Assembly: GCA_038045445.1 (NCBI GenBank)
Contig: JBBSYC010000008.1
Span: 870 to 64,869, forward strand
Direction of reading: 5' to 3'
Origin: Nanobdellota archaeon
GTDB lineage: Archaea > Nanobdellota > Nanobdellia > Pacearchaeales > GW2011-AR1
DNA: 64,000 nt
The notes under the pieces: model-generated
What the model was told of the DNA's origin: nothing
Seen by the model: only the letters and a program-made list of their open reading frames with translations
The model's database searches: none
Program-made: the position numbers and the translations under genes
Shown here: positions 4,128 to 43,200 of the stretch, in pieces
Position numbering within the stretch: the stretch's first letter is position 1
Layout: every line of letters begins with the position of its first letter

Positions 4128-4871
4128 ATGCATAAAAAAAATCTGCTTATTACGGGAGCAAGTGGGAAGCTTGGAAGAGCAATTCTTCTTAAAGGCATTC
4201 CTGATAGAAATATATTGACCCCAAGCCACCAAGAGCTTGATATTACAAACAAGAAGTCTGTTGAAGACTACTTTAATAACCATAATATTGATGAGACCAT
4301 TCATTGTGCGGCTATTGCTAGTGTTCTCAAGTGCGAACAAGACCCTAATAAGGCAATATTAACAAATTCTATAGGCACTGCCCATCTAATAGAAGCTTCT
4401 TCTAAAAAAAATAGCCCAAGATTTATTTATATTTCAACAGACTATGTTTATCCTTGCGAAAACGGACCTTACAAAGAGACCGATAGGACTTCTCCTTTCA
4501 CATTATATGCATTTACCAAACTTGGAGGAGAATTAGTTACGAGATCTCTAAAAAATCATTGTATTATACGCACTAGTTTTTTTGATCCCTCTAATATTCC
4601 TTTTGACACTGCATTTACGGACTCTTATTGCTCCAAGTTGCCGATTTATGAAGTTGCTGAAGCCGTAATCAAATTACTTAAATCCAATTTTGTAGGAGTT
4701 ATTAATGTGGGAGGAGAACGCATAAGTTTATATAATTTGTATAAAAAATACAAGCCTCAAATAAAACCAGATAGTATGTTAAATACAAAAGATCAAATAA
4801 AAAGGGCAAAGGATTCTTCTTTAGATATTACATTGTGGAAAAATTTAAAGGGGAAGTTAAATGGCGATTGA
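4128..4871 (+). CDS. NAD(P)-dependent sugar-nucleotide reductase/epimerase (RmlD-like short form)
   Basis: N-terminal Rossmann motif (LLITGASGKLGRAI) and a YxxxK-like catalytic motif (YAFTK). Confidence 0.55.
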   Translation: MHKKNLLITGASGKLGRAILLKGIPDRNILTPSHQELDITNKKSVEDYFNNHNIDETIHCAAIASVLKCEQDPNKAILTNSIGTAHLIEASSKKNSPRFIYISTDYVYPCENGPYKETDRTSPFTLYAFTKLGGELVTRSLKNHCIIRTSFFDPSNIPFDTAFTDSYCSKLPIYEVAEAVIKLLKSNFVGVINVGGERISLYNLYKKYKPQIKPDSMLNTKDQIKRAKDSSLDITLWKNLKGKLNGD

Positions 4872-5244
4872 AAGAGTTGTTTATCTAGAAAAAGGAGATT
4901 TGAATATGAATTCTAGAAGAAGAGCTAGCACAATAACTGAAGGAAAAGATAACGAGTTTGAAATAAGTGAAGTAAGATTATTGGCGATTGATGAAACTGG
5001 TACCTATGGAGGGCACTATAGAGAGTATCCTGAAGTGTGGGGATTTTTGGGAGAAGCGGAAATAACCTTAGAAGATATAGGCACTAAAGAAAGAAGAAAA
5101 TATAAAGCAGTAGATGGGACGAGGCTATTTATTCCTGCAATGGTTGCTTCTAAAGTTGAGGCTAAGAAAGGAACGTCTATAGTAACCTGTGCACCACATA
5201 GTGCAGATAGGGAGAAACAGACACATAAATATTCTATTGCTTAA
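4861..5244 (+). CDS. cupin, WxcM-C/FdtA-like (putative NDP-sugar 3,4-ketoisomerase)
   Basis: GGHYRE is an RGxHxH-like cupin motif and RLFIPAMVA matches the second cupin motif. The gene is GC-richer than its neighbours. The start may instead be the internal Met at 4906. Confidence 0.4.
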   Translation: MAIERVVYLEKGDLNMNSRRRASTITEGKDNEFEISEVRLLAIDETGTYGGHYREYPEVWGFLGEAEITLEDIGTKERRKYKAVDGTRLFIPAMVASKVEAKKGTSIVTCAPHSADREKQTHKYSIA

Positions 5245-6904
5245 TGAATTTTGCAAAGAATCTTGATATTTTTACAAGGCGTGGATTCTTTGTTCTTTTC
5301 AATGAATTTAAGAATATATATTTCAAAATTTGATGATTAACAAATAAAGAATATATAATAAGTTTGTAGATGAATGAATTTCTAAATAGTTTATTTTGAT
5401 TTTTAAGAACAACAAGATTCAGCTCAAAATGAGGGAATAAGATGTGGTCTGAATTGAAGATTGGGATTTTATTCTTCTTCTTTGTTACAATTAAGGGCAT
5501 TGAAATAAAGAAAGTATCTTTATTGTCTATTGATTTTACTTTATTTTTGTAAAGATAAGCAAACTTTTCAATATTCTCAAGAAAATAGTCCTTTCTAACC
5601 ATTATTTGTGAAATATTGATATTATCATAAACATAAGAGAGATCTTTTTTTGAAAGATAGTTGTAAGCATAATGAAGAGAAAGAGAAGCATAATCTCCTA
5701 TTAATCCTGAACTAAGCATTGAATCACATATTGAAACTGGCTTACCAATCAACTCCATTGAATAAACCTGGAAATAATCTCTATAAGCAAGAATTTTGTG
5801 CCCTTTACTATTAAAACATACATATTTGAATGAAGATACTTTATTTTTTAGGTAATCCAATCCTTTCTCAAAATCTTCTTTGTTCAAATAAATGGGTTTT
5901 TCTTTGAAATATTTTCTGGCCACTGTTCCGTGCAGAGGCCTTTTGTCGTTCTCTATAGCCTTGTAAGCATCTGTCAATAATTTCTGATTTGAATATTTTT
6001 CCACTACTTTTTTATAAGCATTCTCTGCTATCTTTTCCCTTTCTTTATCGTTTTTTAGATAATATTGTATCTTTTCGTACATTTCTTCTTCAGTTTTAAA
6101 AGATGCAAAATCTTTTCCTTCTGTGAATTTTGAGAAATAACCTTCTACATATTCTGTAAGTGCAAATGATTTGCATGCATTAACTGCTAAAGACCTTTCT
6201 AATACATGGGGAACACTGAAGAAGTTTTGAGAGAAACAAAGATTTATTTTTGCCTCGTTTATTATCTTTACAAATTCTTCATCTGGAATCTTGCCGAGAT
6301 ACTGTTTTTTGAACTCGGGATAGTCGTCCCACCCTGCTCCACCTAAAACAAAGTTAACTTTCTTTTTTAAAAGATACCTCATATACTTAAGCCTGTCTCC
6401 TTTTGGAGTTCCAACAAATAATACTTCGTATTTTTTCTTCAAATTCGTTGGCCTAAACTTATTAGTATCCGCTCCAAGTAAATCAAACCAAGGAATATGA
6501 TAAGAGTCGTATTTTTTAGCGAATTGAAGTTGACTTATGAATTGATAGTCTATTGCTGGAGAATAAGGGATTGTATAATTCTCAAACTTTATGTCATCAT
6601 CCCCATTCCAATGAGTTACTTTCACCTTTGGTAATATCTCTTTTATTTTGATAAGGGTTTCTGGATAGAACTCGTCCCAAACTAAAAACAAGTGGATATA
6701 ATCTGGTTTTTCTTTTTTTAATAAATCTAGGAATTTTTGATTCATTATCTTTTTACCGTATTTATACGTCTCTTCCTGAGGGTCAAAATTCACTACTTCT
6801 TTGAAGATTTTCCTTAATGGAATGTGATATGCTTGATTGATTATCCAATAAGGATTATTTATAGACCAACACGCTAGAAGCATTTTCTTATTGATTAAAG
6901 CCAT
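5234..6904 (-). CDS. CgeB-like glycosyltransferase (DUF3880 plus GT1-like domain)
   Basis: 556-aa product; its region ...YEVLFVGTPKGDRLKYMRYLLKK...VNFVLGGAGWDDY... resembles the CgeB/spore-maturation GT family. The stop is TAG. The C-terminal ~100 aa are low complexity. Confidence 0.5.
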   Translation of the reverse strand: MALINKKMLLACWSINNPYWIINQAYHIPLRKIFKEVVNFDPQEETYKYGKKIMNQKFLDLLKKEKPDYIHLFLVWDEFYPETLIKIKEILPKVKVTHWNGDDDIKFENYTIPYSPAIDYQFISQLQFAKKYDSYHIPWFDLLGADTNKFRPTNLKKKYEVLFVGTPKGDRLKYMRYLLKKKVNFVLGGAGWDDYPEFKKQYLGKIPDEEFVKIINEAKINLCFSQNFFSVPHVLERSLAVNACKSFALTEYVEGYFSKFTEGKDFASFKTEEEMYEKIQYYLKNDKEREKIAENAYKKVVEKYSNQKLLTDAYKAIENDKRPLHGTVARKYFKEKPIYLNKEDFEKGLDYLKNKVSSFKYVCFNSKGHKILAYRDYFQVYSMELIGKPVSICDSMLSSGLIGDYASLSLHYAYNYLSKKDLSYVYDNINISQIMVRKDYFLENIEKFAYLYKNKVKSIDNKDTFFISMPLIVTKKKNKIPIFNSDHILFPHFELNLVVLKNQNKLFRNSFIYKLIIYSLFVNHQILKYIFLNSLKRTKNPRLVKISRFFAKFIKQ

Positions 6905-9919: not shown

Positions 9920-11017
9920 TTATTTCAAAATTCCTCTCTTAATAAGAAAATCTTTTGCTTTCTCAATGTAAAACCCTTTGTGATTGTTGTTTTCTGGATT
10001 AACTAACACCATTCCGTTTTCTTCAAACTGCTCTTTTAAGTCCGCTTCAACCATTGTCTGAACTAATTCTTTAAATTTTATTTTAGGACTCCAACCTAAT
10101 AATCTTTTTGCTTTTGAAGCATCTCCTAATAATGCAGGCACCTCTGCAGGACGCTTGTATCTATCTGAAACTTCTACATAATTATTATAATCTAACCCTA
10201 AGAGCGAGAAAGCTTCCTCTAAGAATTCTCTTACTGTATGAGTTTCTTCCGTTGCTATTACAAAATCATCTGGTTCGTGATGCTGTAAAATTGCCCACAT
10301 TGCTTTAACATATTCTTCGGAATGTCCCCAATCTCTTTTTGCATCTAAATTACCCATAACAATTTTATCTGCATGACCTAAAACTATGCGTGCTAATTCT
10401 CTGGTAATTTTACGTGTTGCAAAATTAATTCCTCTTCTCGGTGATTCGTGATTGAAGAGAATTCCATTTGAAGCGAATAATCCGTAAGCAACTCTATACA
10501 TTCTTGTAAAGTTGAATGCTGCAACCTTAGATACACCATAAGGACTTTGTGGCTTGAAAGGAGTTTCTTCATTTTGAGGGGGTGGAGAAGCTCCAAACAT
10601 TTCTGAGGAAGAAGCTTGATAATATTTACATTTTAGTTTTGAATGATGAATTGCATCTAGAAGACGCAAAGTTCCAAGAGCATTTATATCAAATGTAGTT
10701 GCAGGATTTTCAAAGCTTATCCCTACATGACTCTGTGCAGCTAAATTATAGACTTCATCTGGTTGTACTTTTTCTATGATATTTCTTAAACTTGAGGCAT
10801 CGGTTAAGTCAGCGTGATAACAAACAAATTCTTTTGAGGGATCTTGACCATACTTCATTTTTTTTAATAAGTGTTCTATTCTACCACTATGTATGCTACT
10901 TGAACGCCTGACTATTCCCCTTACATAATAACCTTTACTTAATAAAAATTCTGCAAGATAAGAACCGTCTTGTCCATTTATTCCTGTAATCAAAGCAACT
11001 TTTTTTTCGTTGAGCAT
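9920..11017 (-). CDS. gmd: GDP-mannose 4,6-dehydratase
   Basis: N-terminus VALITGINGQDGSYLAEFLL and NLAAQSHV are textbook GMD motifs; 365 aa. Confidence 0.9.
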   Translation of the reverse strand: MLNEKKVALITGINGQDGSYLAEFLLSKGYYVRGIVRRSSSIHSGRIEHLLKKMKYGQDPSKEFVCYHADLTDASSLRNIIEKVQPDEVYNLAAQSHVGISFENPATTFDINALGTLRLLDAIHHSKLKCKYYQASSSEMFGASPPPQNEETPFKPQSPYGVSKVAAFNFTRMYRVAYGLFASNGILFNHESPRRGINFATRKITRELARIVLGHADKIVMGNLDAKRDWGHSEEYVKAMWAILQHHEPDDFVIATEETHTVREFLEEAFSLLGLDYNNYVEVSDRYKRPAEVPALLGDASKAKRLLGWSPKIKFKELVQTMVEADLKEQFEENGMVLVNPENNNHKGFYIEKAKDFLIKRGILK

Positions 11018-15037: not shown

Positions 15038-15820
15038 TTATAACTGCTTAAATACCTTATTATGTCCTAAATGTGCCTTCGCCCAAATAAACTGACCCAG
15101 AACTCCGAATGAACGTATAGCATACCAACTAGCTCCTTTTATTGAGTGAGATGTATGGTCTGCATGGTAATCTGCTTCAACAGGAACCTCTTTTACATGC
15201 ATCTTATAATAAGCTGCCTGAGCAATAATTTGGAAGCTGAACAGGTAATCATTAGTATTCTCATCATAAGGAACTTTTTCTAATAGCTTTCGACCATATA
15301 TTCTAAATCCAGTGTGAAATTCAGTTAGTTTTAACCCTAAGACCAAACGATCAAAAAAGCTTAATCCCCTATTAGCAAGGAATCTTATTAGAGGCATTCC
15401 ATCTTTTAGTGCTTGTCCTTTTTTCTGGAAACGAGATCCTAAAATAAGTTGAGCTTTTCCTTCTTGCATATAGGGCATTGCATATTTTATAGAAATTGGA
15501 TTAAATTGAGCGCCGTCTCCATGAATTTCTACAATATAATCTGCACCCATTTCAAGAGCTTTCTTTATTCCAGCTTTAAGGTTCCCACCATAACCTCTAT
15601 TTGGAACATGCCTGAATGCTTTTAATCCTAATTTTTTAGCTACCTCATAAGTTCCATCTTTAGAGCCGTCATCCATCAATATCAGATCATCCAAAAGCTC
15701 TTTTGGTATTGCCTTTATCCTTTCTACTGCGCGGGGTAACATTCTTGCAACATTGTATGCTAGAATTACTCCAATTACTTTAGGTTTTTTTATACCATAC
15801 TTTAGTTGTTTCTTAACCAT
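15038..15820 (-). CDS. glycosyltransferase family 2 (dolichyl-phosphate hexose synthase-like)
   Basis: VIGVILAYNVARML...LMDDGSKDGT... matches Dpm1-like GT2 enzymes. Confidence 0.65.
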   Translation of the reverse strand: MVKKQLKYGIKKPKVIGVILAYNVARMLPRAVERIKAIPKELLDDLILMDDGSKDGTYEVAKKLGLKAFRHVPNRGYGGNLKAGIKKALEMGADYIVEIHGDGAQFNPISIKYAMPYMQEGKAQLILGSRFQKKGQALKDGMPLIRFLANRGLSFFDRLVLGLKLTEFHTGFRIYGRKLLEKVPYDENTNDYLFSFQIIAQAAYYKMHVKEVPVEADYHADHTSHSIKGASWYAIRSFGVLGQFIWAKAHLGHNKVFKQL

Positions 15821-15845
15821 CTTGAAAAACGTAATAAAACAGGTT

Positions 15846-15860
15846 TATAAAGATATATAA
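15846..15860 (+). promoter_or_regulatory. putative archaeal BRE/TATA box for the SemiSWEET gene
   Basis: The sequence tataaagatatataa lies ~20–30 nt upstream of the ATG at 15875, the leaderless-promoter geometry. Confidence 0.35.
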
Positions 15861-15874
15861 TTTTTAGTGCTCGA

Positions 15875-16126
15875 ATGATTACAGATATCGTAGGATATGT
15901 GGCTGCAATAATGGGAACGTTAATTATGTTTCCTCAATTGATTAAAACAATAAGAACAAAAAGTGCCAAAGACGTTTCTATGGGTATGTTAATTGTTTTT
16001 CTAATTAATTGCTTTCTTTGGGTAACTTAGGGAATATTAATAAAAGACGGTCCTGTGGCCATAAGTAATTCTTTAGTCTTTATCATACTCGTAATTGAGA
16101 TTGTTTTGAAAATTAAATATAAATAA
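15875..16126 (+). pseudogene. SemiSWEET / PQ-loop sugar transporter with an in-frame TAG at codon 52 (16028–16030)
   Basis: Translation MITDIVGYVAAIMGTLIMFPQLIKTIRTKSAKDVSMGMLIVFLINCFLWVT[TAG]GILIKDGPVA... matches bacterial SemiSWEETs (FLPQ... / LW-x-VYGIL). The TAG sits where the conserved Tyr codon belongs. Not in the ORF track because of the stop. Confidence 0.6.
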
Positions 16127-16127
16127 A

Positions 16128-17027
16128 TTAGTTTTTAACTAAGAATCCGCTTTCCAGGTTGCCAAACTCTACCCTCTTTCCAGATTCTTTTATTTGTCTA
16201 ACGGTATAGTTGAATTGGTCTCTATCTAGTGCACCCATTAAAACTGCTGCTCCATCTCCAACCATTTCTCTTGTTCCAGTGTATTTGTCGATTATGAAGT
16301 CTACTAATTGTCTTTTAGGTACAAAGAAATATCCAGAAGCAGTCTTAGGATTTATTCCTGGCTTCAATTCTTCTGGAGCTAAATGCGTTTTAAGACCGAA
16401 AGAAATCATTCCACTAAAATCTGGAGCTTCGCTAGAATGAACGTTTGTTACTCCAAGAAGAGTTGCATCTGAAGGTTTTAACCCTAATTCTCTGAACATT
16501 TTCTCTTCTAAATCTGTTTGTGGTTTAATTACTCCGCCATCATATATCTTACATAACCCTGCGCAAGAAGAGTCAATCAAGTTAGGGGCGTGTGTTGCAT
16601 TAGATGGTCTTCTGTGAACTAAAATTGTTCCATCTCCTGTTTCGAGATAAGCTCCAACAGCAAGTATTCTCATCCTACTGTAAAAATCTGGTTGTAATCT
16701 TCTCTCTTCTAATGGAAGAGCTCTTAATTCTTTATCAAAATCAGGATTTAGAGATGTTCTAGTTGTAGCTACATAATCTTGGAAATTTGATGCGTCACAA
16801 ATTAAAACACCGTCACGACTAGAAGATAGAGTGGCTAATGGTCCTGCAGTGGCTTTAGGATTAGCAACAAGAACTTTATCTTTCCAGACTCGTTCAATAA
16901 TAGATTTATCAGAGCTTGTGATATATCGAGAGAATTCTGATCCAGACATGGTTACATTTAATGCTTCTGGAGATACAGGGTTTTCTGGAGTATAGAAGAA
17001 TTCTATTTCTGCTCTCGGATTTGTCAT
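16128..17027 (-). CDS. NUDIX-fold protein with a degenerate NUDIX box and N/C-terminal extensions
   Basis: RILAVGAYLETGDGTILVHRRP...SSCAGL...LEEKMFRELGL resembles NUDIX beta-strands and a helix with a degenerate box. 299-aa product; GC-richer. Confidence 0.35.
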   Translation of the reverse strand: MTNPRAEIEFFYTPENPVSPEALNVTMSGSEFSRYITSSDKSIIERVWKDKVLVANPKATAGPLATLSSSRDGVLICDASNFQDYVATTRTSLNPDFDKELRALPLEERRLQPDFYSRMRILAVGAYLETGDGTILVHRRPSNATHAPNLIDSSCAGLCKIYDGGVIKPQTDLEEKMFRELGLKPSDATLLGVTNVHSSEAPDFSGMISFGLKTHLAPEELKPGINPKTASGYFFVPKRQLVDFIIDKYTGTREMVGDGAAVLMGALDRDQFNYTVRQIKESGKRVEFGNLESGFLVKN

Positions 17028-19234: not shown

Positions 19235-19341
19235 TCTTTTTAAAGCTAATTCTAAAAAGTCTCTCACATATGGGTGTAATGACCTTTCTTTTTTCCTAAA
19301 TACTTCTTCATTAACAATTACGAAACCTGAATGAAATCGAT

Positions 19342-19746
19342 CTATCTGTATCTCCCCCTACCTTTTGCTACGTACATCAAGTTGAAAGTATCTGTTCCTT
19401 TATTATGAGGGAATGGTGCCTCTCTAAAATAAGTTCTACTAACATTTAAAAGTGCCAAGTCTTCCAAGTCTAACCCTGATTCTTGTTTTGCCACTTGCAT
19501 TATTCCTTCTTCCGAGGAAGTCCCTTTTTGTAAGCGCCCGCCGACAGGCCATAATTCTCTTAATGCAGGAGCATTTCTTCTCTCCAAAAGCAGAAATCCT
19601 CCACAACACTCAATTAGAACATCTGCGCACAAGATTATCGAATTTCTATGAATTATTAGGTATTCTTCCTCTGGTATAAACCCTATTCTCAAACGGTTTA
19701 AATCAATAGGCCTGCCGTCTTCAAGTGCATACTCTTTATAATCCAT
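19342..19746 (-). CDS. NUDIX-like hydrolase (divergent)
   Basis: LLLERRNAP...WPVGGRLQKG...EEGIMQVAKQESGL is NUDIX-fold-like but divergent. The TAG stop is in frame with, and directly abuts, the upstream cupin gene. Confidence 0.4.
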   Translation of the reverse strand: MDYKEYALEDGRPIDLNRLRIGFIPEEEYLIIHRNSIILCADVLIECCGGFLLLERRNAPALRELWPVGGRLQKGTSSEEGIMQVAKQESGLDLEDLALLNVSRTYFREAPFPHNKGTDTFNLMYVAKGRGRYR

Positions 19747-20259
19747 CTAAATTAAAGGAAAAGAGATGTAATTTCCTTTATCGTGTGGGTTAAAATCGTT
19801 GGGGGCATCTACTATAAACGGAACTAAAACGCTTCCGGAGCTTAAAATAAAGGTGTGCGCCAATCCTGGAGAAACCTTTACAAATTTTCTATTTGGATCT
19901 GAGCTATCTACATCTAATGTTGTTTCAACACCAAATAAACCTTGATATTTTGAGCATTGTGCGATAGACTCTGGAACAACTATTTCTGGTTTTATTCTAT
20001 TTGTTTCTCCGGGCATTACTGCTCTTATAATGAGAGTTCCCTTACCTTTTGCTATTGTAAAATATTCTCCATAATTGGCATGAAAATGTTGTCCTAATGG
20101 CAATCCAGAAGTATCTAAGACATCTATAAAGTTTACTACTGCTATTTCTTGACCATGTAAATATCCTATAGGCATATCAGTAATTACTCTTCTACTATCT
20201 CTGTGACCCCCTGCTGGGTGTACCCTTACCATACCTTCTAGTTCAGATTCCTTTGACAT
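19747..20259 (-). CDS. cupin-domain protein (possible sugar isomerase/epimerase)
   Basis: LGQHFHANYGEYF and SPGLAHTF are two cupin motifs. The stop is TAG, immediately followed by the ATG of the next gene in the same frame. Confidence 0.4.
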   Translation of the reverse strand: MSKESELEGMVRVHPAGGHRDSRRVITDMPIGYLHGQEIAVVNFIDVLDTSGLPLGQHFHANYGEYFTIAKGKGTLIIRAVMPGETNRIKPEIVVPESIAQCSKYQGLFGVETTLDVDSSDPNRKFVKVSPGLAHTFILSSGSVLVPFIVDAPNDFNPHDKGNYISFPLI

Positions 20260-23292: not shown

Positions 23293-23943
23293 ATGAAAGG
23301 CCAACATAGAATATGGGATTATTTGTATTTGCAAGGGTTATCTTGGAAGAAAGAGACAATTAGAATAAAGACTGCAATAAAAAATAAAAAAATATTTGAA
23401 CTAGGGGTTGGAAATGGAAAGACACTCAAAGCAATATTAAATCAAAATCCAAAGAAAGTTATCGCCATAGATATATCTGGAGAGGCAATAAAAAAATCAA
23501 GGGAAAAAATAAAATCCGATAAAGTCTTATATATAAAGTATGATATTCTCGATTTCAAAACTGGGGAAAAATTTGATGTAATTGCGTGCTATTATTTTTT
23601 AAACAATTTTATAGAAAGTAAAAGAAAGTTAGTAATTAAAAAGATTAAAGGTCTTTTAAGCAAAGATGGAACAATAATTTTTGAGGATTTTGCAATTGGA
23701 GATTTTAGACAAAGAGGAAAAGAAATAGAAAAAAATACTGTTGAAAAGCAAAACAAAATTATATGTCACTTTTTTGATAAGAAAGAGATAAAAAGATTAT
23801 TCAAAGATTTTAACATTTTAAAAATTGAGGAAAAAACATTTAATCCAATTAGAAAAGATAAGTCTGTTCAGAGAAAGATTTTGAAGGCAATTATTAAAAA
23901 TAAACGCTCTCGCCAGGACTTGAACCTGGAACCTTTGCCTTAG
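23293..23943 (+). CDS. class I SAM-dependent methyltransferase
   Basis: ELGVGNGKTL...VIAIDIS... is SAM-binding motif I. The 3' end (TAG stop) overlaps tRNA-Arg antisense by ~39 nt. Confidence 0.55.
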   Translation: MKGQHRIWDYLYLQGLSWKKETIRIKTAIKNKKIFELGVGNGKTLKAILNQNPKKVIAIDISGEAIKKSREKIKSDKVLYIKYDILDFKTGEKFDVIACYYFLNNFIESKRKLVIKKIKGLLSKDGTIIFEDFAIGDFRQRGKEIEKNTVEKQNKIICHFFDKKEIKRLFKDFNILKIEEKTFNPIRKDKSVQRKILKAIIKNKRSRQDLNLEPLP

Positions 23944-23978
23944 GAGGGCATTGCGCTATCCAATTGCGCCACGAGAGC
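23905..23978 (-). tRNA. tRNA-Arg (anticodon CCU)
   Basis: Acceptor gctctcg/cgagagc, anticodon arm (a)tgcc-cuCCUaa-ggca(a), T-arm ccagg-ttcaagt-cctgg, discriminator G. 74 nt. Confidence 0.7.
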
Positions 23979-24165: not shown

Positions 24166-24669
24166 CTAAGAATCAAGCATAGGCTGTGTTTTTTCTGAAG
24201 ATGCTGGATTAGAAATGATAAAATCAAAATTTCCTACTGGTTCTAAACTTCTTCTTGGATTAAACACTCCAATGGTTAAGTCAAGACCCCTATCTAAATA
24301 TTTTCTTAAGGTGATTTCTGGATCTTCACGATTATTCCATGGTTTAGATCTATCTGGCCAAGGACAATGATACAATATAGCATCTTTTGCAGACAATTCT
24401 TCTCTTAAAAATACCCCGTTTACATTTTCATAAGATGGATGGGGATTGTAATCCTATGATTCATATTGGTTCCAATCCCCGTAAGGGTTTTCTCTTTTTT
24501 TTGTATGTAATCTTTGTGTTTCTAACATTTTTAAGACTTCATCTATAAAGTAGCTTTTTCCAGAATCTGGAACTCCGAAGACTGCTCCAACAAAGGGTCT
24601 TATTTTAGAAACAGTAACTAAAGCGATTGTTCTTTCTATTGCTATTTTCATATCCAATACTTCTACCAT
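24166..24669 (-). pseudogene. P-loop NTPase/kinase-like gene interrupted by an in-frame TAG (24454–24456)
   Basis: The two ORF-track pieces 24454..24669 and 24166..24396 are in the same frame. Translation is continuous (...GVPDSGKSYF...NQYES[TAG]DYNPHPSYENVNGVF...LSAKDAILYHCPW...). Walker A is in the first piece. The gene starts 5 nt from tRNA-Leu. Confidence 0.45.
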
Positions 24670-24673
24670 AGAA

Positions 24674-24758
24674 TGCGGGAGGGAGGATTCGAACCTCCGA
24701 AGGCACTAAGCACAATAGCTCTTGAGGCTATCCCGTTTGACCACTCCGGAACCCCCGC
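24674..24758 (-). tRNA. tRNA-Leu (anticodon CAA), class II long variable arm
   Basis: Acceptor gcggggg/ctcccgc (one G-U), anticodon arm atagc-cuCAAga-gctat, 16-nt variable arm, T-arm ggagg-ttcgaat-cctcc, discriminator A. 85 nt. Confidence 0.75.
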
Positions 24759-30277: not shown

Positions 30278-31489
30278 ATGGTAAATAAAGAATTAATAAA
30301 ATATTCTCTTAAACATATCTCTCATAGAAAAGCGAGGAGTTTTCTCACAATATTCTCTATACTTGTAGGAATCTCGACTATATTCATATTTGTTAGTTTT
30401 GGACAAGGTTTATTTGATTATGTTAATGAAATAAAAACTAGCTCCGGTGCAGATAAAGTTACTATAATTCCTAAAGGAATCGGCGCACCTGGATTGGATA
30501 ACACTTTCTTTTTAACTGAAGAAGATATAAGAACTGTTGAAAAAACTTCGGGGGTTTATGAAGCGACTGGAATGTACTCCAAGGCCGCTGAAGTTACCAA
30601 GGGCAGAACAAAAAAATTTGTTTTTTTATTAGGATATGATCCTGATAAAGCTGACTTAATCAAAGAAGTATTCTCAATAGATGTTGATACTGGAAGAGAC
30701 CTTAGGCAGAGTGATGATGCAAGGGTAGTTTTAGGACATAATTATCAATTAGATAAAAAAATATTTCCTAATGGTCTGACTTTAAATGATAATTTGGAAG
30801 TTCAAGGTCAGAAGCTAAGAATTGTAGGATTTTTTGAGGAAGTTGGAAATCCTCAGGATGATTCTAATGTTTATATAACAACAGATTATTTTGAGAAATT
30901 ATATTTTAATAGTTCTAAAAAATTTAACCAGATAATTGCAAGGGTTGACGCAGATAATATTGAGAGCACCATACAAAAAATTGAATCTGGACTCAGAAAA
31001 TCAAGAAATCTTGAAAAAGGAAAAGAAGATTTTTTTGTAGCTTCTTTTGAAGAACTTTTGGAACAGTTTACTCAAGCGCTAGATTATATTGTTTATTTTG
31101 TTATATTTATTGCGCTTATTTCCGTAGTAGTTTCAGCCGTGAACACTGCAAATACTACAATAACATCGGTTCTTGAAAGAGTTAAAGAAATTGGTATAAT
31201 GAAAGCAATTGGTGCAAAAAATAAAGAAATCTTTGCAATATTTGTCTTTGAGGCAGGATTTTTGGGATTTATTGCTGGACTTTTGGGAATCATTTTAGGA
31301 TTTATTATAACCTCTATTGCCGGTGCTTTTCTTGATGCACAAGGATGGGGGTTTCTAAGCCCTCATTACTCTTGGCAACTATTTATTGGATGCATCCTAT
31401 TTGCTACATTGACTGGGGCAATATCTGGAATAATTCCCGCTTGGAGAGCTTCAAAAATAAGACCGGTTAGAGCACTTCGCTATGAATAA
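30278..31489 (+). CDS. ABC transporter permease, FtsX/MacB-like (second paralog)
   Basis: Same architecture as the first permease, and the FtsX block is identical at the peptide level (VLERVKEIGIMKAIGAKN). Confidence 0.8.
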   Translation: MVNKELIKYSLKHISHRKARSFLTIFSILVGISTIFIFVSFGQGLFDYVNEIKTSSGADKVTIIPKGIGAPGLDNTFFLTEEDIRTVEKTSGVYEATGMYSKAAEVTKGRTKKFVFLLGYDPDKADLIKEVFSIDVDTGRDLRQSDDARVVLGHNYQLDKKIFPNGLTLNDNLEVQGQKLRIVGFFEEVGNPQDDSNVYITTDYFEKLYFNSSKKFNQIIARVDADNIESTIQKIESGLRKSRNLEKGKEDFFVASFEELLEQFTQALDYIVYFVIFIALISVVVSAVNTANTTITSVLERVKEIGIMKAIGAKNKEIFAIFVFEAGFLGFIAGLLGIILGFIITSIAGAFLDAQGWGFLSPHYSWQLFIGCILFATLTGAISGIIPAWRASKIRPVRALRYE

Positions 31490-32352
31490 TTTTGTTTTGA
31501 AGTTCTTATTAAATGTTTAATATGATGTCTTACTTTTCTTCTTGATAAGTACAGATAAATAATTATCCCTATAACTGCAAGCCACAAAATAACTTGGCCT
31601 ATTGAAACTGAAGATTTTTTCCTTGTGTTCTCAAAAGCTAATTCGCTGAATAAAAGCTCTTTAGTTAGCGAACGGCGTTCACCTATCTCATCATTGTATT
31701 GTAAATTTATAATTATTGACCCTGAATTTAAGCTTGCATCAAAAGTAATTGTTGTATCTTCATTTGAATCAAGCTCCCCTAAAATCTTTACATGACTTCC
31801 TTCGATTAAAGCATTATCTTGCTCGGGTACTTCCAAAGTAATCGCTCTTGCATTTTTCTCTCCTATATTAACTACTCCGAGAATCAATTTATTTGTTGAA
31901 AATGAATAACTATCTAAGGTCACGATAAAATCTGTTCGCACCTCTTCAACAGATATATTGAAATCTGTAATCTTTGTCAATGAGGATTCTCCGTTCAACC
32001 AAGTCTTCAAACTAACTTTTTGGTCTCCATCTAATGCATTTGAATCCACCCTTACTTTATAAGGAATCATCCAAAAAGAATTATAATCTCTCTGATATGT
32101 CCCTCCTTTTATTACTTGCATCTTTGAATATCCTGAATCAAGTGTGAATGGATATTCTTCTAAAAATTCTAAATTTATTATTCCACATTCTGGATTTTCG
32201 GTGCCCGTAATCTGAAAAAGCAACTTTACCGTTTCCCCTGGAACTGCTGAAGAAGGATCTTGATTCACAAGCGATGGTGTTAAAACACATAAAGCGGAAG
32301 AAAATTCAATCATTGTTAAAACAAAAGTGAAAATTATCAAAACCTTTTTCAT
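31480..32352 (-). CDS. exported single-pass membrane protein (hypothetical)
   Basis: Signal peptide MKKVLIIFTFVLTMIEFSSA and a C-terminal TM with a basic tail. Convergent 10-nt overlap with the second permease. Confidence 0.5.
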   Translation of the reverse strand: MKKVLIIFTFVLTMIEFSSALCVLTPSLVNQDPSSAVPGETVKLLFQITGTENPECGIINLEFLEEYPFTLDSGYSKMQVIKGGTYQRDYNSFWMIPYKVRVDSNALDGDQKVSLKTWLNGESSLTKITDFNISVEEVRTDFIVTLDSYSFSTNKLILGVVNIGEKNARAITLEVPEQDNALIEGSHVKILGELDSNEDTTITFDASLNSGSIIINLQYNDEIGERRSLTKELLFSELAFENTRKKSSVSIGQVILWLAVIGIIIYLYLSRRKVRHHIKHLIRTSKQNYS

Positions 32353-37262: not shown

Positions 37263-40200
37263 CTAAATCAATTCAGCATAGAAATATACTGCTTTCATAT
37301 CTGCGGAGTTATATTCTCTCAATCTAGCAGGCACTCGAATTTCATAATCATATATTCCATAGGCTCCTTGAGTGTCTTTCTTTATTGAAGCCATAAATAC
37401 TACATCTTCTTCATCGTCTTGGCTAAACTGCCCATCTGCGACATCGTCTGATGTATCCCATAATATTCCGGTTCTGAATGCGGTGTTGTTCGTAGAATTG
37501 GATATAGGAATATTTGAAATCAGGCGATTAAATATATAGGAATCAATAGTCTCTGGAGCTTCTGTTCCATTACTAAATATTCCAGTTACTGAATCTCCGA
37601 ATGAAGACATTCCTAAAATAGAATCTAAATCTGTAAAATCATTCGTCGTAGTTCCGCCTAAAGCGCTTCTACCTAAAGACTGGAGGGAATTCCAAAACAC
37701 AACAGACTCTTTATCTGTGGCAAAGATTGAGCCGTTTTGATAATTACTGGCGTTCCAAAATAGAATACTTTGGTTCCTTTGTCCACTAAGAGAAAACACA
37801 CTTTGCTCCCCTATTTCTCCGTATACAAACTGCCAACCACTTACACTAGCAGAATTGTTTGCTAAATTATTGGTTTCATTCCATTCTTCAATAGTGCCAT
37901 TGGAAGATATTGGTGGGTCTATCTGTATGTAAATTTGATTTGTCCCTAAAGGTACTGACCAATTGATACTAAATAGCATATCTGATAAACCTAAAATGTC
38001 ATAGGCAGTATAATTTGAACCAAGTTGTATTCCTCCGTTGCCTGGCTCTCCTTGAAAGAAACTGACAGTTACATTAGGAACACTAACATTGACTAAATTG
38101 TGAATTGTTGCATTTACTAAAACAGTATCATTTTCTGCAGGATTGCTCATATTAAATTGAATGTCGCTAAAGTTAATCATGAAGTCTGCTAGAGTAACAT
38201 TAAATGAAAATTTATTGGACCAATTTCTGTTGCCTGAATTATCCACACAAGAAACGTTCCAGGTATGTAATCCCAGAGCAAATTTGTTGACAGACTGGAT
38301 GGTTGCAGTTCCATTTGGAGAGCTTATAGAACTGACATTTAACAAATTATCCGTATATAAGTTGCACGTTAAATCTGTATCTATATTGTCTATTGCAGTA
38401 AAGTTAAAGTTTACTAATTTCAGAGTATTGCTCCCATTTGTAGGAAGATTTAGATTAATTTGTGGAAAAGTTATATCCACTGTAAAATTAGTTAAGTTTG
38501 AAGTGCCTTGATTGAAATCTGGAAATACATCAAAACAACTTACATTCCAAGAGTGTTTGCCTTCAGAAACTCCATTTACTGCAAATGAGTTGTTTGCATT
38601 TGCAGTTATTGTGCCCGAACTTGAATTTATTACCCCGTCTAATAATAGTGAACAATTGAATATCCCAATGGTATCCTGTGGAAGATATACAAAGGTAACA
38701 TTTGATGAATTAAGATATTCTTCATTTAATGGGTTGAGATTTGTTACTATAGGGGGAGCTTCTACTGTGAATGTGCGAGTCTCACTGTAATTCAAATTCG
38801 AGGAATCATCTCTGCAATTGACATTCCATGTATATACTCCGTCCGACTTAATCAAACTTCGAAAAACGCTTGTGCCATTTTGTGAATCAATATTTCCTAT
38901 AGAGACTACATCATCAATGCTAATATTACAACTAAGATTAGAGTCTATTAAATCATATGCAGTATAATTAAAGGTAATATTATTTGATACCATTAGAGTA
39001 TTATTTTGAGGGAAATTTAATTCAATCCAAGGCTTTTTTGTATCTATTGTCAAAACAAAAGATGGCGTTTCTGTACCAACTAAATTAGTCAAATCAGTTA
39101 CATTAATTGTCCAATTGTAAAAACCATCTGGAAGAGAGACAGTGATATTATTTTCCGCATCATTGATAATTACGGTTGTATTTGTCTGATTAATATTCCC
39201 ATTTAATATAAGTGTTGCGTTTGCAATGTTGTTGTTATCATCTAAAACATTATAGAGGAAAGCCATATTTGAAGTATTTGAAAAGGTGTTATTTAAAGGA
39301 CCTACTAACCCTACGCTTGGTGCCTGTTCTATTGTGAAATTTCTAGTTAAACTGGTAAATTTGTTATTTGCATCGTCGTAACATGTGACATTCCAATACT
39401 TCAAGCCACCACTTGCAAAGGTTATTGAGCGATTAACTATTATTCCACTTGAGGCTAAAGAGGTATTGACTACTAAATTATTTACTGTGATATTACATAA
39501 CAAAAGAGGGTCTATGTTGTCTGTTGCATTGAAACTCAGATTTAGGTTTGATGTGAAGAATTGGGCTCCGTCATTCGGATAGATTAATTCAACGTTCAGA
39601 CCGTTAGTATCTACTGTGAATGCTCTTGTTTGGGAGACGTTTGTGAGTTCGTAAGTATCATTGCAAATAACATTCCATGTGTGAAATCCAGAATTGACTC
39701 CACTCATGCTGAAATTACTTTGTAGACTATTGCTTGGAGAAGAATGTGTCTGATTGTAAAATCCGTCTATATACAATTCGCAAAGACTTAGATTTGTGTT
39801 ATCTGAAGGAGTATAACTCAAATTGAATGATGTCGTGTTAAAGAACGAGTTATTCTCTGTGTTGAGAGCTATACGCGGATATTCTGTGATATTAACAAGT
39901 CTAGTTTCACTGTAATTTGAGCGACCAGAATCATCTGCACAAGAAACATTCCAGTAAAATCCTCCATCGATAAGATTTGTAATTTGACGATTTGTAATGC
40001 TTCCATTGACTGCTACAAAATTCAAATCGCTTCTTTCTCCTACAAAAAGGCTACAGACTAAATTAGGTGCTACATTGTCTATTGCAGTGAAATTAAAATT
40101 AACTGTTGAAGAATTGAATAGGGTATTATTACTTGGAAGATTTAAAGTTATATTTGGGGCATTAAGGTCTATGATAAATACTCTTGAAGAGTGATTTGTT

Positions 40201-43200
40201 GAATTTAGACCTCCTGTGTCTGTGGCATTGATATTCCATAAATATAATCCCTCTCCTAAATTTGTCAATGAGAAATTATTGTATTGTCCATTCAAAACGG
40301 ACGTTTGATTTGTTTGGTTTACTGCATTATTTAATATAAATCTTGTTTGTAAAAGGCCATTGTTGTCCGTGACATTATACACTAAAGTGATGTTACCTGT
40401 AGTGCTATAAGTTGCATTTGGAGTAATTAAATCTACAACTGGTGATATGTCTAAGACTGTGAATGTGTTAGTGATACTATTATTTCGATTACCTGCTTCA
40501 TCTATACAAGAGACATTCCAATAGTGGGTTCCAACAGCTATATTTGAAACAGAAAGATTAATAAGAGTTGCGTTTGCAGAATTAACATTTAAATGTTCAA
40601 TAGTTGAATCAATAGTTAAATTACAAATAAGGGTTTGGTCTATATTATCAAACGCAGTGTAATTGAATTCAACCCTACTAATTTGAAATGAACTATCATT
40701 TGCTGGAGCAGATAGATTTATACTTGGAAAAATTGTGTCTACATAAAATGTACGAATTGTGGTGTTTGTTCCCTCAAGATTGGTACTATCTGAAGAGTTA
40801 ACTGTCCAAGAATATGTTCCACTTGCTAAATTGACTAAAGAAAAATTGTTTAATACTCCGAGTGAAATGGCACTTGCATTTGTAGAATTTCTTGCACCGT
40901 TAAGAATTAATGTTGAATTAACTACATTAGAATTAATGTCTGTGATATTATAAAATAAAGTCACATTTTGAGAATTATACCATGTTGCGTTTGCAGGAGA
41001 AGATAATGAAATTACTGGAGCAACATCGCTCTGGCCGACAGTTACTTGTCTTGTAGTTGTTCCATTTTTAGAGTCATAAGTTGATACTGCAATACACCTG
41101 ATATTATTTACTGAATTTATGTTTCCTTGTATTGAAAAATTATTGTTTAGCAAAGTTGTTGAAATATTTCCTAAACTATGAGGATTAGTCTCTCCTGTAG
41201 ACAAGATAATATTTCCACTTGACTCTATATTTGTCCAAGTTTCAGTAGAACTGTTTCTCTGTAGATAAACTTGTGTGTTTCTACATGTACCAATTGTGCA
41301 TGTAACTTGGCATGTTACGTTTAACTGCTGTCCCGTAGAGATACTTGTATCTACTGTTGGTTGCACGAGGTCTACATTCAAGAAACCTTCTGTCGTGACA
41401 TTAATATCTAAAAATGAAGAAGTCGGAAAATCCCACGCGTGAATTATTGAACGAAGCTGTGTTGCGTGAGTATTATAAGCATTAATTAAATAAGTTATTC
41501 TGTCTGAAGGTTTAAGACGAATATCTGAAGAAATACACGTGGTATTCTGTCCTGTTGAGGTGCCAGCTGAAACAGTTCCCCCAGAACTATCGTCTCCATT
41601 CTGACAAAGAAGAGTGCTTCCAGAACTATTTTCTACATATACTTTCCATGTTAAAACAATATTTGCACTGGATAATGAAAAACTGCTTGAGAAATCTATG
41701 ACGCTACCTGCTGGAATAATTGCACCATTTGAACCCATTACTTGAGTTGAAGCATTCAATATATTCTTGACAGTTTGTGCAGTTATATTGAATCCAAGAG
41801 TATTTTGTGTAGCATCTTGAGAATTGTTCATCCAAATTACGGATGTTTGATTTTGAATTCCATTGCTTGTATAAGTTTCATAAAATCTTCTTCCGAAACT
41901 CCAAGGAACTACATTTGATATGATTGTACGATTTGAAGTTATGTTTGAATTTGAATATTGGTCTGTGCAAGAAACTGCCCATAAATATGTGCCATTTGAC
42001 AAGTAGTAGTTGAATGTTTGATTTATTCCTTTAGATATGGTTGAAACTGTTTGAACAGGCACTCCATCTAAGTAAATAGAACAGTTTGCAATATTTGAAA
42101 CGTCAGTCACATTATAAACGAAATAAAAGTCAAATGGATTTGAAATTGTTGTTCCATCTGAAGGAGAGACAAGAGAAACAAATGGATTTATAGTATCAAC
42201 TGTGGATGTAGTAAATGAATGGGGTCCTGTCGTATTGCATCTGCCGTCGCGACAAGAAGTTGCATTAAAATAATAAGTTGTCTGACCTGAAAGTCCTGTT
42301 AAATTAAATCCTTGAACTGTTTTAGGGAAATTATATCCTTGACTTCCCGAAGTCATGGCAAGAGTTGTGCCATATTTAATACTTGAATTTGCTTCAACAT
42401 TGGTGCTCCAATTTACAAATGCTGAAGTAATTGTTAGGTCTGAAACATTTACATTTGATATCTCTGGAACATAGGTTGGACAGATGCCACCCCATATTGT
42501 ACTGTTTGGATAATATGCACTCCAAGTTGCGTGAGTTGTAGTATTCACAAAAGATACTATGTATGCGTCTTCACATAGTTGAATCTGCGTAGTAAACTCT
42601 TCTGAAGCAACGTCTGTATATTGTTGAGAGTTAGATTGCACGGTAACTATTGAAGACAAAACAGTTCCATTGTTTAGATAGGATTGTGAATAAATTCCTG
42701 TATCTGTTGTTGGGTCATACCAGCTAACTACAAAATCATCTTGAGTTATTGCTGAAACTCTTATATCTTCTCCGCCTGTGGCATCTGTATCTATACTTGT
42801 TGTTGAAACTCTTGTTGTGCCATTTGGATAATAAACTGCAAATCTTTTAGCCCCATCATTTACATCCACCCATGAGACTACAAGTGAACTTTCATTCATC
42901 ACTGCAAGAGAAACTGAACGGGAGTTTCCCGCATTACTGTCTACAGTAACTGCTGATGAAATTGCGGTTCCAGTGTAACTATAAAGAACGTAATAAACGT
43001 CGCTAATACCTCCTCCACCCCCACTATCATCAAAATATAAAACTCCGAAGGCAGTTGAATTGATTGCAGACACTTCAACTGCTTGAGAAGCTTCTCCTAC
43101 ATCTTGGTCTATATCAAAAATAGACGTAATTGTTGAGCCACTTGAAGAATAAACCGCTGCGGAGATATCATTACTTGTATCATCAAACCATGACGCAACA

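What the first reader, a model, noticed from the sequence alone, without database searches (positions are those of the whole stretch)
15875..16126. SemiSWEET sugar transporter gene with an in-frame TAG exactly at the conserved Tyr codon
Apart from one TAG codon, the 83-codon ORF is an excellent SemiSWEET, with the PQ-loop FPQLIK and the motif LW-x-x-[Y]-G-I-L. The TAG replaces the Tyr of the conserved WxVYG motif, one nucleotide away from TAT/TAC. A canonical TATA element precedes the gene. The cause is either a very recent nonsense mutation in an otherwise intact gene, or programmed recoding or readthrough of UAG. A second in-frame TAG in a different conserved ORF is reported separately.
Basis: partly seen in the sequence, partly recalled or inferred. 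Interest (0 to 1): 0.55.

Follow-up and report, generated by a model that had tools for sequence, protein, structure and literature searches.

The report
Young amber-stop pseudogene of a SemiSWEET
A small sugar-transporter gene in an uncultured groundwater nanoarchaeon carries a real, population-wide premature TAG stop at a conserved tyrosine; it is most likely a freshly broken gene, one of several in this strain, and not a sign of an altered genetic code.

Summary
Window 15875-16126 (+) is 83 codons plus TAA, with TAG at codon 52. With Tyr substituted it is a clear SemiSWEET (Pfam, NCBIfam, PDB). The TAG falls on a Tyr conserved in all orthologues found and in all four solved SemiSWEETs whose alignments were printed.

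The TAG is not a base-call error. The exact 51-aa truncated product is on at least 21 contigs from independent assemblies, and every copy fetched is 100% identical across the gene. No intact allele of this strain was found.

Five syntenic orthologues (70-90% identity) have TAT or TAC. The 31 codons after the TAG show no decay, so the mutation is recent.

Programmed recoding is not supported:
- TAG ends 10 of 58 genes.
- No orthologue shares the stop.
- There is no structure downstream of the TAG.
- The window has no tRNA(CUA) and no Pyl genes.

The same clonal population carries other damage: a second internal TAG, a G6-to-G5 frameshift, and a GAA-to-TAA nonsense variant seen in one sample.

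Best reading: a young nonsense pseudogene in a drifting DPANN population, possibly slightly leaky. One oddity remains. All three fixed stop gains are TAG (p about 0.01-0.02), so amber-specific tolerance cannot be fully excluded.

The parts
15845..15852 (.). Palindromic archaeal TATA box TTTATAAA. It lies 24 nt from the ATG of the divergent GT2 gene (15820, minus) and 22 nt from the SemiSWEET ATG (15875, plus). It is probably a shared bidirectional promoter for leaderless transcripts.
   Evidence: The same box, at the same distance from the GT2 start, is present in orthologous loci L014, L020, L025 and L027.
15875..16027 (+). Codons 1-51 of the SemiSWEET gene. They cover TM1 with the PQ motif (FPQL) and TM2 up to Trp49. 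This is all that is translated if TAG terminates.
   Evidence: The 51-aa product is called as a gene on at least 21 contigs. NCBI names it 'PQ-loop domain-containing transporter [Nanoarchaeota archaeon]'.
16028..16030 (+). In-frame TAG (amber) at codon 52, in place of the conserved Tyr. The ancestral codon was TAT, so this is a T-to-G transversion at the third position.
16031..16123 (+). Codons 53-83. They cover the TM2-TM3 loop and TM3, including Asn65, the counterpart of the substrate-pocket Asn. Protein identity to orthologue P0001 is complete except for the last residue.
   Evidence: 8 synonymous and 1 non-synonymous differences to P1, omega 0.026. On the window's own branch there are 3 synonymous and 0 non-synonymous changes.
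16124..16126 (+). Original TAA stop of the SemiSWEET gene.
15038..15820 (-). Divergent neighbour. A GT2 glycosyltransferase resembling polyprenyl/dolichyl-phosphate sugar synthases, and a conserved syntenic partner of the SemiSWEET gene.
24166..24669 (-). Second gene with an internal TAG (24454-24456, codon 72), of unknown function and with a Walker-A-like GVPDSGKS. Its final Trp codon is also replaced by TAG (24166-24168), followed directly by TAA.
   Evidence: The 71-aa fragment is on 11 contigs. The uninterrupted orthologue P0008 is 64-68% identical.
19238..19746 (-). NUDIX-like gene broken by a one-base deletion in a G run (5 G at 19354-19358; orthologue-like reading needs 6). Its last 40 residues are in another frame.
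   Evidence: The truncated 134-aa product is on 22 contigs.
19971..19971 (-). Polymorphic site in gene 19747-20259. It reads GAA (Glu97) in the window and TAA (stop) in the same strain in sample SRR32696700.

Best explanation
The locus is a SemiSWEET (single PQ-loop, three-helix sugar transporter) gene of an uncultured groundwater Nanoarchaeota (DPANN) population. A single T-to-G change turned the conserved Tyr52 codon TAT into the stop TAG.

Shown: the mutation is real and fixed in the sampled, essentially clonal, population. It is absent from every relative found. TAG is an ordinary stop in this genome.

Inferred: translation ends after 51 residues. That product has TM1 and most of TM2, but lacks TM3 and the pocket Asn65. 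It therefore cannot form the triple-helix bundle or the dimeric pore, and the transporter is lost or nearly lost.

Inferred: the promoter and the downstream codons are intact simply because the event is very recent. It falls within roughly the last sixth of the lineage's own branch.

Inferred: it was fixed by drift or hitch-hiking in a small-population, host-dependent organism that is accumulating other gene-inactivating mutations.

Possible but not shown: rare misreading of UAG by the near-cognate tRNA-Tyr would restore the wild-type residue. A trickle of full-length protein could soften the loss.
For: - Reality and fixation: the exact truncated product is on at least 21 contigs from independent ENA and Logan assemblies, all 100% identical in the gene. 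No full-length allele closer than 90% exists among 5.8 billion protein clusters. A JGI metagenome scan for any allele of the codon found only the P0001 contig.
- Ancestral state: five syntenic orthologues have TAT (four) or TAC (one). The more distant L040 and L041 homologues also have Tyr.
- Recency: in the tail, omega is 0.026 against P1. The window's own branch has 3 synonymous and 0 non-synonymous changes. If the tail has been neutral since the stop, the stop is younger than about 17% of that branch at 95% confidence.
- TAG is a normal stop: 10 of 58 genes end in TAG. Where orthologues are available, genes end at equivalent positions, for example 31480-32352. Several TAG codons occur in the tail right after the stop of 5234-6904.
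- Other damage in the same strain that amber decoding cannot explain: a G-run frameshift on 22 contigs and a GAA-to-TAA nonsense variant in one sample.
- No recoding apparatus or signal: the only tRNAs are Gly-TCC, Arg-CCT and Leu-CAA. There is no tRNA in the 5.4 kb beyond the window. No Pyl or release-factor domain appeared among the roughly 45 window ORFs scanned against Pfam. Downstream folding is no better than shuffles, z +0.52.
- Loss elsewhere: in a Ca. Pacearchaeota MAG the homologue is interrupted by a 111-nt structured insert carrying a stop.
Against: - The downstream 31 codons are perfectly preserved and the promoter is intact. This is also what continued translation would produce.
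- All three fixed stop gains in the window are TAG: SemiSWEET Y52, the internal TAG of gene 24166-24669, and its terminal Trp-to-TAG. The only TAA nonsense is a single-sample variant. Given the window's codon usage, about 22-26% of nonsense mutations should give TAG, so three of three has p about 0.01-0.02.
- In the SemiSWEET, the TAG sits where near-cognate decoding would restore the native residue.
- Only about 70 kb of a genome of unknown size could be examined. A suppressor tRNA elsewhere cannot be ruled out.
- Two to three recent inactivations in about 58 genes is rather many for a streamlined genome.
Confidence: 0.75

Rival explanations
1. Leaky but functional gene. UAG at codon 52 is read at a useful frequency by the near-cognate tRNA-Tyr. 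Archaeal tRNA-Tyr GUA lacks queuosine, like the plant tRNA-Tyr that suppresses the TMV amber codon (general knowledge). This would regenerate wild-type SemiSWEET at a reduced level, and the allele would be kept as a down-regulated but selected gene. Many in-frame stops in prokaryotic genes have been proposed to work this way (Belinky et al. 2021, PMC7918605).
For: - The tail is intact, with omega 0.026 and 0 non-synonymous changes on the window's branch.
- The promoter is conserved.
- The stop replaces Tyr, the residue a near-cognate tRNA-Tyr would insert.
- The second internal TAG lies in a variable, indel-bearing loop where any residue might be tolerated.
- PMC7918605 reports purifying selection around in-frame stops.
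Against: - The +4 base is G (UAG-G). By analogy with eRF1 systems this is a good termination context (general knowledge).
- There is no stimulatory structure downstream.
- No diverged strain retains the stop, so there is no evidence of selection after the mutation.
- PMC7918605 itself finds that such stops persist only over short, polymorphism-scale times.
- Basal readthrough is normally well under a few percent (general knowledge).
Confidence: 0.15
2. Amber-specific decoding in this lineage. The genome would encode a suppressor tRNA(CUA), a Pyl system, or a release factor that recognises UAG poorly. In-frame TAGs would then be partly translated and tolerated genome-wide.
For: - Three of three fixed stop gains in the window are TAG, p about 0.01-0.02.
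- Both interrupted genes keep well-conserved downstream parts.
- The only non-TAG nonsense (TAA) is confined to one sample.
Against: - TAG terminates 17% of genes, with no depletion.
- There are only 2 internal TAGs in 19,991 codons.
- No tRNA(CUA) and no Pyl genes occur in about 70 kb (and Pfam).
- The two Pyl papers checked make no mention of DPANN, Nanoarchaeota or Woesearchaeota.
- About 100 kb of related genomes show no in-frame stops in the orthologues compared.
- The frameshift and the TAA variant show that ordinary gene decay is happening anyway.
Confidence: 0.07
3. Sequencing or assembly artefact. The true base would give TAT.
For: None found.
Against: The identical TAG allele occurs in at least 21 contigs from separate samples and two assembly pipelines, including a 25x-coverage contig. 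No TAT allele of this strain appears in the protein or contig collections.
Confidence: 0.01

Closest known systems
Prokaryotic SemiSWEET transporters (Pfam PF03083/PF04193; NCBIfam SemiSWEET_2; solved structures such as 4QNC Leptospira biflexa, 4RNG, 4X5M E. coli, 9KAX)
   Same: Length of about 83 residues, a single three-helix bundle, the PQ motif in TM1, and the LWxxYG motif. Trp49 and Asn65 align with Trp48 and Asn64 of 4QNC. Family scores are above the Pfam cut-offs.
   Different: The reading frame is broken by TAG at the conserved Tyr, so only TM1-TM2 can be made by standard decoding. The NCBIfam score of 79.0 is just under the cut-off of 80. The gene lies in an archaeal glycosylation cluster, divergent from a polyprenyl-phosphate sugar synthase-like GT2, so its substrate is unknown.
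In-frame stop codons in otherwise intact prokaryotic genes: young pseudogenes or nonsense polymorphisms (Belinky et al. 2021, PMC7918605)
   Same: A single-nucleotide stop gain, flanks with no decay, short evolutionary age, and occurrence in a carbohydrate-transport gene.
   Different: Here the stop is seen in only one clonal lineage. The conservation-based argument for readthrough made in that paper therefore cannot be applied.
Pyrrolysine (amber) decoding in methanogenic archaea, and the 'all TAG = Pyl' code (bioRxiv 10.1101/2024.09.30.615893; PMC12626013)
   Same: An archaeon with in-frame TAG in conserved genes.
   Different: No pyl genes or tRNA(CUA) are seen. TAG is a common stop. The in-frame TAGs replace Tyr, an unconserved loop residue and a terminal Trp, not Pyl sites. 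The phylum is not among known Pyl users in the papers checked.
Natural UAG suppression by cytoplasmic tRNA-Tyr, as in tobacco mosaic virus readthrough (general knowledge)
   Same: UAG could be misread as Tyr by a G34-unmodified tRNA-Tyr, which here would restore the native residue.
   Different: The CARYYA-type 3' context is absent (the sequence is UAG GGA AUA). There is no evidence for efficiency above background.

Membership tests
SemiSWEET (PF03083 MtN3_slv / PF04193 PQ-loop) | Profile score above the curated family cut-off | tested here: met
   With Tyr at codon 52, PF03083 scores 42.4 bits (cut-off 23.7) and PF04193 scores 35 bits (cut-off 22). NCBIfam SemiSWEET_2 scores 79.0 against a cut-off of 80, marginally below.
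SemiSWEET (PF03083 MtN3_slv / PF04193 PQ-loop) | A single three-helix bundle of about 80-100 residues, with the PQ motif and the pocket Trp and Asn | tested here: met
   It aligns over residues 4-82 with solved SemiSWEETs. FPQL, W49 and N65 are in register with W48 and N64 of 4QNC.
SemiSWEET (PF03083 MtN3_slv / PF04193 PQ-loop) | An uninterrupted reading frame able to yield the full three-helix protein | tested here: not met
   TAG at codon 52. The gene is called as a 51-aa product in all assemblies.
Pyrrolysine / amber code expansion | pylT (tRNA-CUA) and pylS/B/C/D genes | tested here: inconclusive
   None in the 64-kb window or the 5.4 kb beyond it (Pfam).
Pyrrolysine / amber code expansion | TAG rare or absent as a terminator, and repeated in-frame TAG in conserved genes | tested here: not met
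   10 of 58 genes end in TAG. There are 2 internal TAGs in 19,991 codons.
Programmed stop-codon readthrough | The stop codon is conserved at the same site in orthologues | tested here: not met
   All five close orthologues and the L040 and L041 homologues have Tyr.
Programmed stop-codon readthrough | A stimulatory 3' context or RNA structure | tested here: not met
   The 113 nt from the TAG fold no better than shuffles, z +0.52. The same holds for the second TAG, z +0.27. The +4 base is G.
Programmed stop-codon readthrough | Purifying selection on the codons after the stop, since the stop arose | tested here: inconclusive
   The tail is intact, with omega 0.026 and 0 non-synonymous changes on the window's branch. 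All carriers are identical, so selection after the mutation cannot be separated from recency.
Young unitary pseudogene (nonsense mutation) | A stop one nucleotide from the ancestral sense codon, absent in relatives and fixed in the lineage | tested here: met
   TAT to TAG. Found on at least 21 contigs with no intact allele.
Young unitary pseudogene (nonsense mutation) | Independent signs of gene inactivation in the same genome | tested here: met
   A G-run frameshift, a second amber and a TAA variant.
Young unitary pseudogene (nonsense mutation) | Absence of the full-length protein product | not testable with these tools
   This needs metaproteomics or a reporter assay.

The most novel reading that the evidence does not exclude
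This Nanoarchaeota lineage tolerates amber codons specifically. The cause could be an unrecognised suppressor tRNA(CUA) elsewhere in the genome, or weak UAG recognition by its single release factor. In-frame TAGs in conserved genes would then be partly translated and could drift to fixation, while TAA and TGA nonsense mutations would remain deleterious. This would fit two facts: all three fixed stop gains in the window are TAG, and the reading frames behind them are intact.
Probability: 0.08. Interest if true: 0.65.

Novelty: new member of a known kind. Interest (0 to 1): 0.2.

Why it matters
Taken as it most probably is, this is an ordinary event: a freshly inactivated accessory transporter gene in a genome-reduced symbiont-like archaeon.

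It is useful mainly in two ways:
- As an annotation warning. NCBI lists the 51-aa stump as a complete 'PQ-loop transporter'.
- As a small window on ongoing gene loss in a clonal groundwater DPANN population. About 58 genes carry two amber stops, one homopolymer frameshift and one segregating ochre stop.

It would matter more only if the TAG bias proved to be genome-wide. That would point to amber suppression in DPANN archaea. None was mentioned in the two Pyl papers checked for DPANN terms, and none of the 25 papers matching 'DPANN', 'stop codon' and 'recoding' had a title or listed abstract on the subject.

Tried and rejected
- Base-call or assembly error: rejected. Independent assemblies are identical.
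- Global TAG reassignment: rejected. Stop usage shows no depletion of TAG, and TAG-rich tails follow genuine stops.
- Downstream recoding structure (PYLIS-like or readthrough stimulator): none found.
- Suppressor tRNA or Pyl genes: none in the window or in the contig extension (Pfam).
- In-frame stops in orthologues of related genomes: none. The only '*' hits were alignments running past true stops, or a conserved tRNA on the other strand.
- Loss of the promoter together with the 2H-phosphoesterase gene that lies between the GT2 and SemiSWEET genes in some relatives: rejected. The TATA box is retained, and P0003- and P0005-type loci share the window's arrangement.
- Suspected frameshifts at 217-1556 and 4128-5244: not real. 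These are separate genes with later true starts, and no homology appears in other frames.
- Search for the intact allele or further alleles in JGI metagenomes: only the P0001 contig was found.
- Extending the contig via the 1526-aa ORF: failed, because the gene actually runs past the window end. It was recovered via the SpoIIM gene.
- Re-initiation to make TM3 separately: considered. The only candidate is a GTG at codon 61, with no supporting evidence, so this was not pursued.

Full report
OBSERVATION

Window 15875-16126 on the plus strand is an 83-codon frame ending in TAA, with one internal TAG at codon 52 (16028-16030).

With Tyr placed at that codon, the protein is clearly a SemiSWEET:
- It passes the curated Pfam cut-offs of MtN3_slv (42.4 bits, cut-off 23.7) and PQ-loop (35 bits, cut-off 22).
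- It scores 79.0 against NCBIfam SemiSWEET_2, whose cut-off is 80.
- It aligns over residues 4-82 with solved SemiSWEET structures, E 4e-15 to 4e-10.

In the four alignments printed, the TAG column is the Tyr of the LWxxYG motif in every structure. Trp49 and Asn65 line up with Trp48 and Asn64 of the Leptospira protein 4QNC. From memory of the structural literature, those two residues form the sugar pocket.

A palindromic TTTATAAA lies at 15845-15852, 22 nt before the SemiSWEET ATG and 24 nt from the ATG of the divergent GT2 gene. It is conserved in the orthologous loci. The spacing fits a shared bidirectional promoter for leaderless transcripts, which is an inference.

IS THE TAG REAL?

Yes. 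The exact 51-residue truncated product is recorded on at least 21 contigs from separate samples and two assembly pipelines. These are the Hainich groundwater wells H51 and H52 in ENA, and Logan assemblies of ERR3654040, ERR3858113-15 and SRR32696705. All 13 loci fetched are 100% identical to the window over 15701-16300, and 99.96-100% identical over up to 6.8 kb.

NCBI holds the stump as 'MAG: PQ-loop domain-containing transporter [Nanoarchaeota archaeon]'.

No full-length allele of this strain was found. The nearest intact protein is 90% identical. A scan of JGI metagenomes for any allele of the codon in this sequence context returned only that relative's contig.

The organism is a DPANN archaeon. 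The window has archaeal RNA polymerase subunits and ribosomal proteins, and the related MAGs are labelled Nanoarchaeota or Ca. Pacearchaeota. It was sampled as an essentially clonal population.

RELATIVES

Five orthologue clusters (P0001-P0005, 90-70% identity) sit in the same place. Each lies divergent from the GT2 gene and convergent with the 299-aa or DUF218 gene.
- All are uninterrupted and have Tyr at the site: TAT in four, TAC in one.
- A 55%-identical homologue in another Hainich Nanoarchaeota MAG is also intact.
- In a Ca. Pacearchaeota MAG the homologue is split by a 111-nt, strongly structured insert carrying a TAA. The gene has therefore been disrupted independently at least once elsewhere.

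AGE OF THE MUTATION

Behind the TAG, the window differs from P0001 at 8 synonymous positions and 1 non-synonymous position, the last codon. This gives omega 0.026.

Changes assignable to the window's own branch are 13 synonymous and 3 non-synonymous in the whole gene. In the tail they are 3 synonymous and 0 non-synonymous.

If the tail had been neutral along that whole branch, about 17 non-synonymous changes would be expected. Seeing none puts the stop within the last 17% or so of the branch at 95% confidence, corresponding to dS below about 0.04.

This fits a very recent loss equally well as continued translation. Because all carriers are identical, the two cannot be separated by sequence alone.

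TESTS FOR RECODING

TAG behaves as an ordinary terminator:
- 10 of 58 genes end in TAG, against 33 in TAA and 15 in TGA.
- Where orthologues exist, these genes end at equivalent positions, for example 31480-32352.
- The stretch after the stop of 5234-6904 holds three more TAGs within 30 codons, as non-coding sequence would.
- Across 19,991 codons of the window's genes there are only two internal stops.

No recoding apparatus or signal was found:
- No tRNA with a CUA anticodon occurs in the window, even at permissive thresholds.
- None occurs in the 5.4 kb of the same contig beyond the window.
- No Pyl-related or release-factor domain appeared among the roughly 45 window ORFs scanned against Pfam.
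- The RNA downstream of either TAG folds no better than shuffled controls, z +0.52 and +0.27.
- About 100 kb from related genomes shows no in-frame stop in the orthologues compared.
- The two papers on archaeal Pyl decoding that were checked do not mention DPANN lineages.

OTHER DAMAGE IN THE SAME STRAIN

1. It lies in gene 24166-24669 on the minus strand, of unknown function, at codon 72 (24454-24456). The position is a variable loop, and 95 well-conserved codons follow it. The uninterrupted orthologue P0008 is 64-68% identical. The fragment is on 11 contigs. The final Trp codon of the same gene (TGG in the orthologue) is also TAG, followed directly by TAA.
2. The NUDIX-like gene 19238-19746 on the minus strand is frameshifted. 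A run of five G at 19354-19358 would need to be six to restore the orthologous GxGEIxxD reading. The last 40 residues lie in another frame. This allele is on 22 contigs.
3. In sample SRR32696700, the otherwise identical strain carries GAA-to-TAA at window 19971, truncating gene 19747-20259.

Items 2 and 3 cannot be rescued by any amber-decoding mechanism. They show that gene-inactivating mutations are arising and fixing in this population.

BEST EXPLANATION (confidence about 0.75)

A recent T-to-G nonsense mutation has inactivated, or nearly inactivated, the SemiSWEET gene. The 51-residue product lacks TM3 and Asn65, so it cannot build the three-helix bundle; this is inferred from the alignment. 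Fixation by drift or hitch-hiking in a small, clonal, host-dependent population is inferred from the co-occurring lesions.

RIVALS

Leaky allele. The allele may retain some function through near-cognate decoding of UAG as Tyr, which would restore the native protein. This is plausible in principle, and general knowledge of tRNA-Tyr amber suppression supports the chemistry. Belinky et al. argue that in-frame stops often persist under selection, though only briefly. Nothing in the context suggests efficiency above background.

Amber-specific tolerance. This is the most novel reading still open. All three fixed stop gains are TAG, although only about 22-26% of possible nonsense mutations in these genes yield TAG. 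That gives p about 0.05-0.07 for two and 0.01-0.02 for three. The only non-TAG nonsense is a single-sample variant. I give this about 0.07-0.08, for three reasons: the sample is tiny, the terminal Trp-to-TAG change is harmless under any model, and every direct test was negative.

COMPARISON AND NOVELTY

The gene belongs to the SemiSWEET family by sequence. It fails the one requirement of an intact frame, so it should be annotated as a pseudogene, or as a disrupted SemiSWEET, and not as a 51-aa transporter.

The phenomenon matches the known class of young in-frame-stop alleles in prokaryotes (PMC7918605). It is a new instance of a known kind and of low general interest, unless a whole-genome survey confirms the TAG bias.

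CONTEXT NOTE

The divergent GT2 resembles polyprenyl/dolichyl-phosphate sugar synthases. The surrounding 20 kb is a glycosylation cluster, with GDP-mannose dehydratase, RmlD-like reductases, C-methyltransferases, a PMT-type GT-C and a Wzx-type flippase.

The conserved GT2-SemiSWEET pairing hints that this PQ-loop protein serves the glycosylation pathway. It might supply sugar, or it might handle a lipid-linked sugar in the manner of MPDU1. This is speculation, and the synteny comes only from close relatives.

Noticed in passing
window 24166-24669 (-), internal TAG at 24454-24456, terminal TAG at 24166-24168: A second conserved gene has an in-frame TAG. It has no Pfam family and carries a Walker-A-like GVPDSGKS. 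Its orthologue P0008 (165 aa) is uninterrupted. The gene's last Trp codon is also replaced by TAG, directly followed by TAA. The ATG lies only 4 nt after the 3' end of tRNA-Leu(CAA) at 24674-24758, leaving no room for a promoter of its own.
   Followed up: partly
window 19238-19746 (-), G run 19354-19358: A NUDIX-like gene is frameshifted by loss of one G in a homopolymer (G5 where orthologues imply G6). The C-terminal 40 residues are conserved in another frame. The truncated product is on 22 independent contigs.
   Followed up: yes
window 19971 (gene 19747-20259, -); locus L043 position 376: The same strain in sample SRR32696700 carries a GAA-to-TAA nonsense variant (Glu97 to stop) that is absent from the window and from the other samples.
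   Followed up: partly
L041 6335-6445 (JACPLS010000076.1, Ca. Pacearchaeota MAG): The SemiSWEET homologue is interrupted by an insert of about 111 nt. The insert is built from two similar GC-rich hairpins (AAACCGCASCTTTYAARSTGCGGT) and carries an in-frame TAA. Its RNA fold z-score is -7.4. It could be a MITE-like element or an intron-like insert; the type was not determined.
   Followed up: partly
window 15821-15874; L014 9415-9464 and 9960-10000; L020 7254-7304: A palindromic TATA box TTTATAAA is shared by the divergent GT2 and SemiSWEET genes. In relatives P0001, P0002 and P0004 a 2H-phosphoesterase (CPDase-like) gene sits between them, flanked by two TTTATAAAG boxes. The window's arrangement looks like a deletion between these two boxes, or the ancestral state.
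   Followed up: partly
window 9920-11017 (-) versus L014 2399-4648 and L020 100-1220: The GDP-mannose 4,6-dehydratase-like gene is 365 aa in the window. In the P0001 relative it is a 749-aa double-domain protein. In the P0002 relative it is two separate genes of 212 and 164 aa. This is structural fluidity within the glycosylation cluster.
   Followed up: no
L020 8106-8243 and 9760-10017: In the P0002 relative, the 299-aa gene and the DUF218 gene that flank the SemiSWEET in the window survive only as short remnants of 45 and 85 aa, on either side of an inserted 454-aa gene.
   Followed up: no
window 37263-47876 (-), 59393 to beyond 64000 (-), 50891-53770 (-): There are giant predicted surface proteins of 3537 aa, 2618 aa (this one runs past the window end; see L049) and 959 aa, with Ig-like or PKD domains. 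By general knowledge these are typical of DPANN genomes.
   Followed up: no
window 23905-23978 (-) versus 23293-23943 (+): The last 13 codons of the methyltransferase ORF overlap tRNA-Arg(CCT) on the opposite strand. The orthologue stops earlier, so the apparent C-terminal conservation reflects the tRNA and not the protein.
   Followed up: partly
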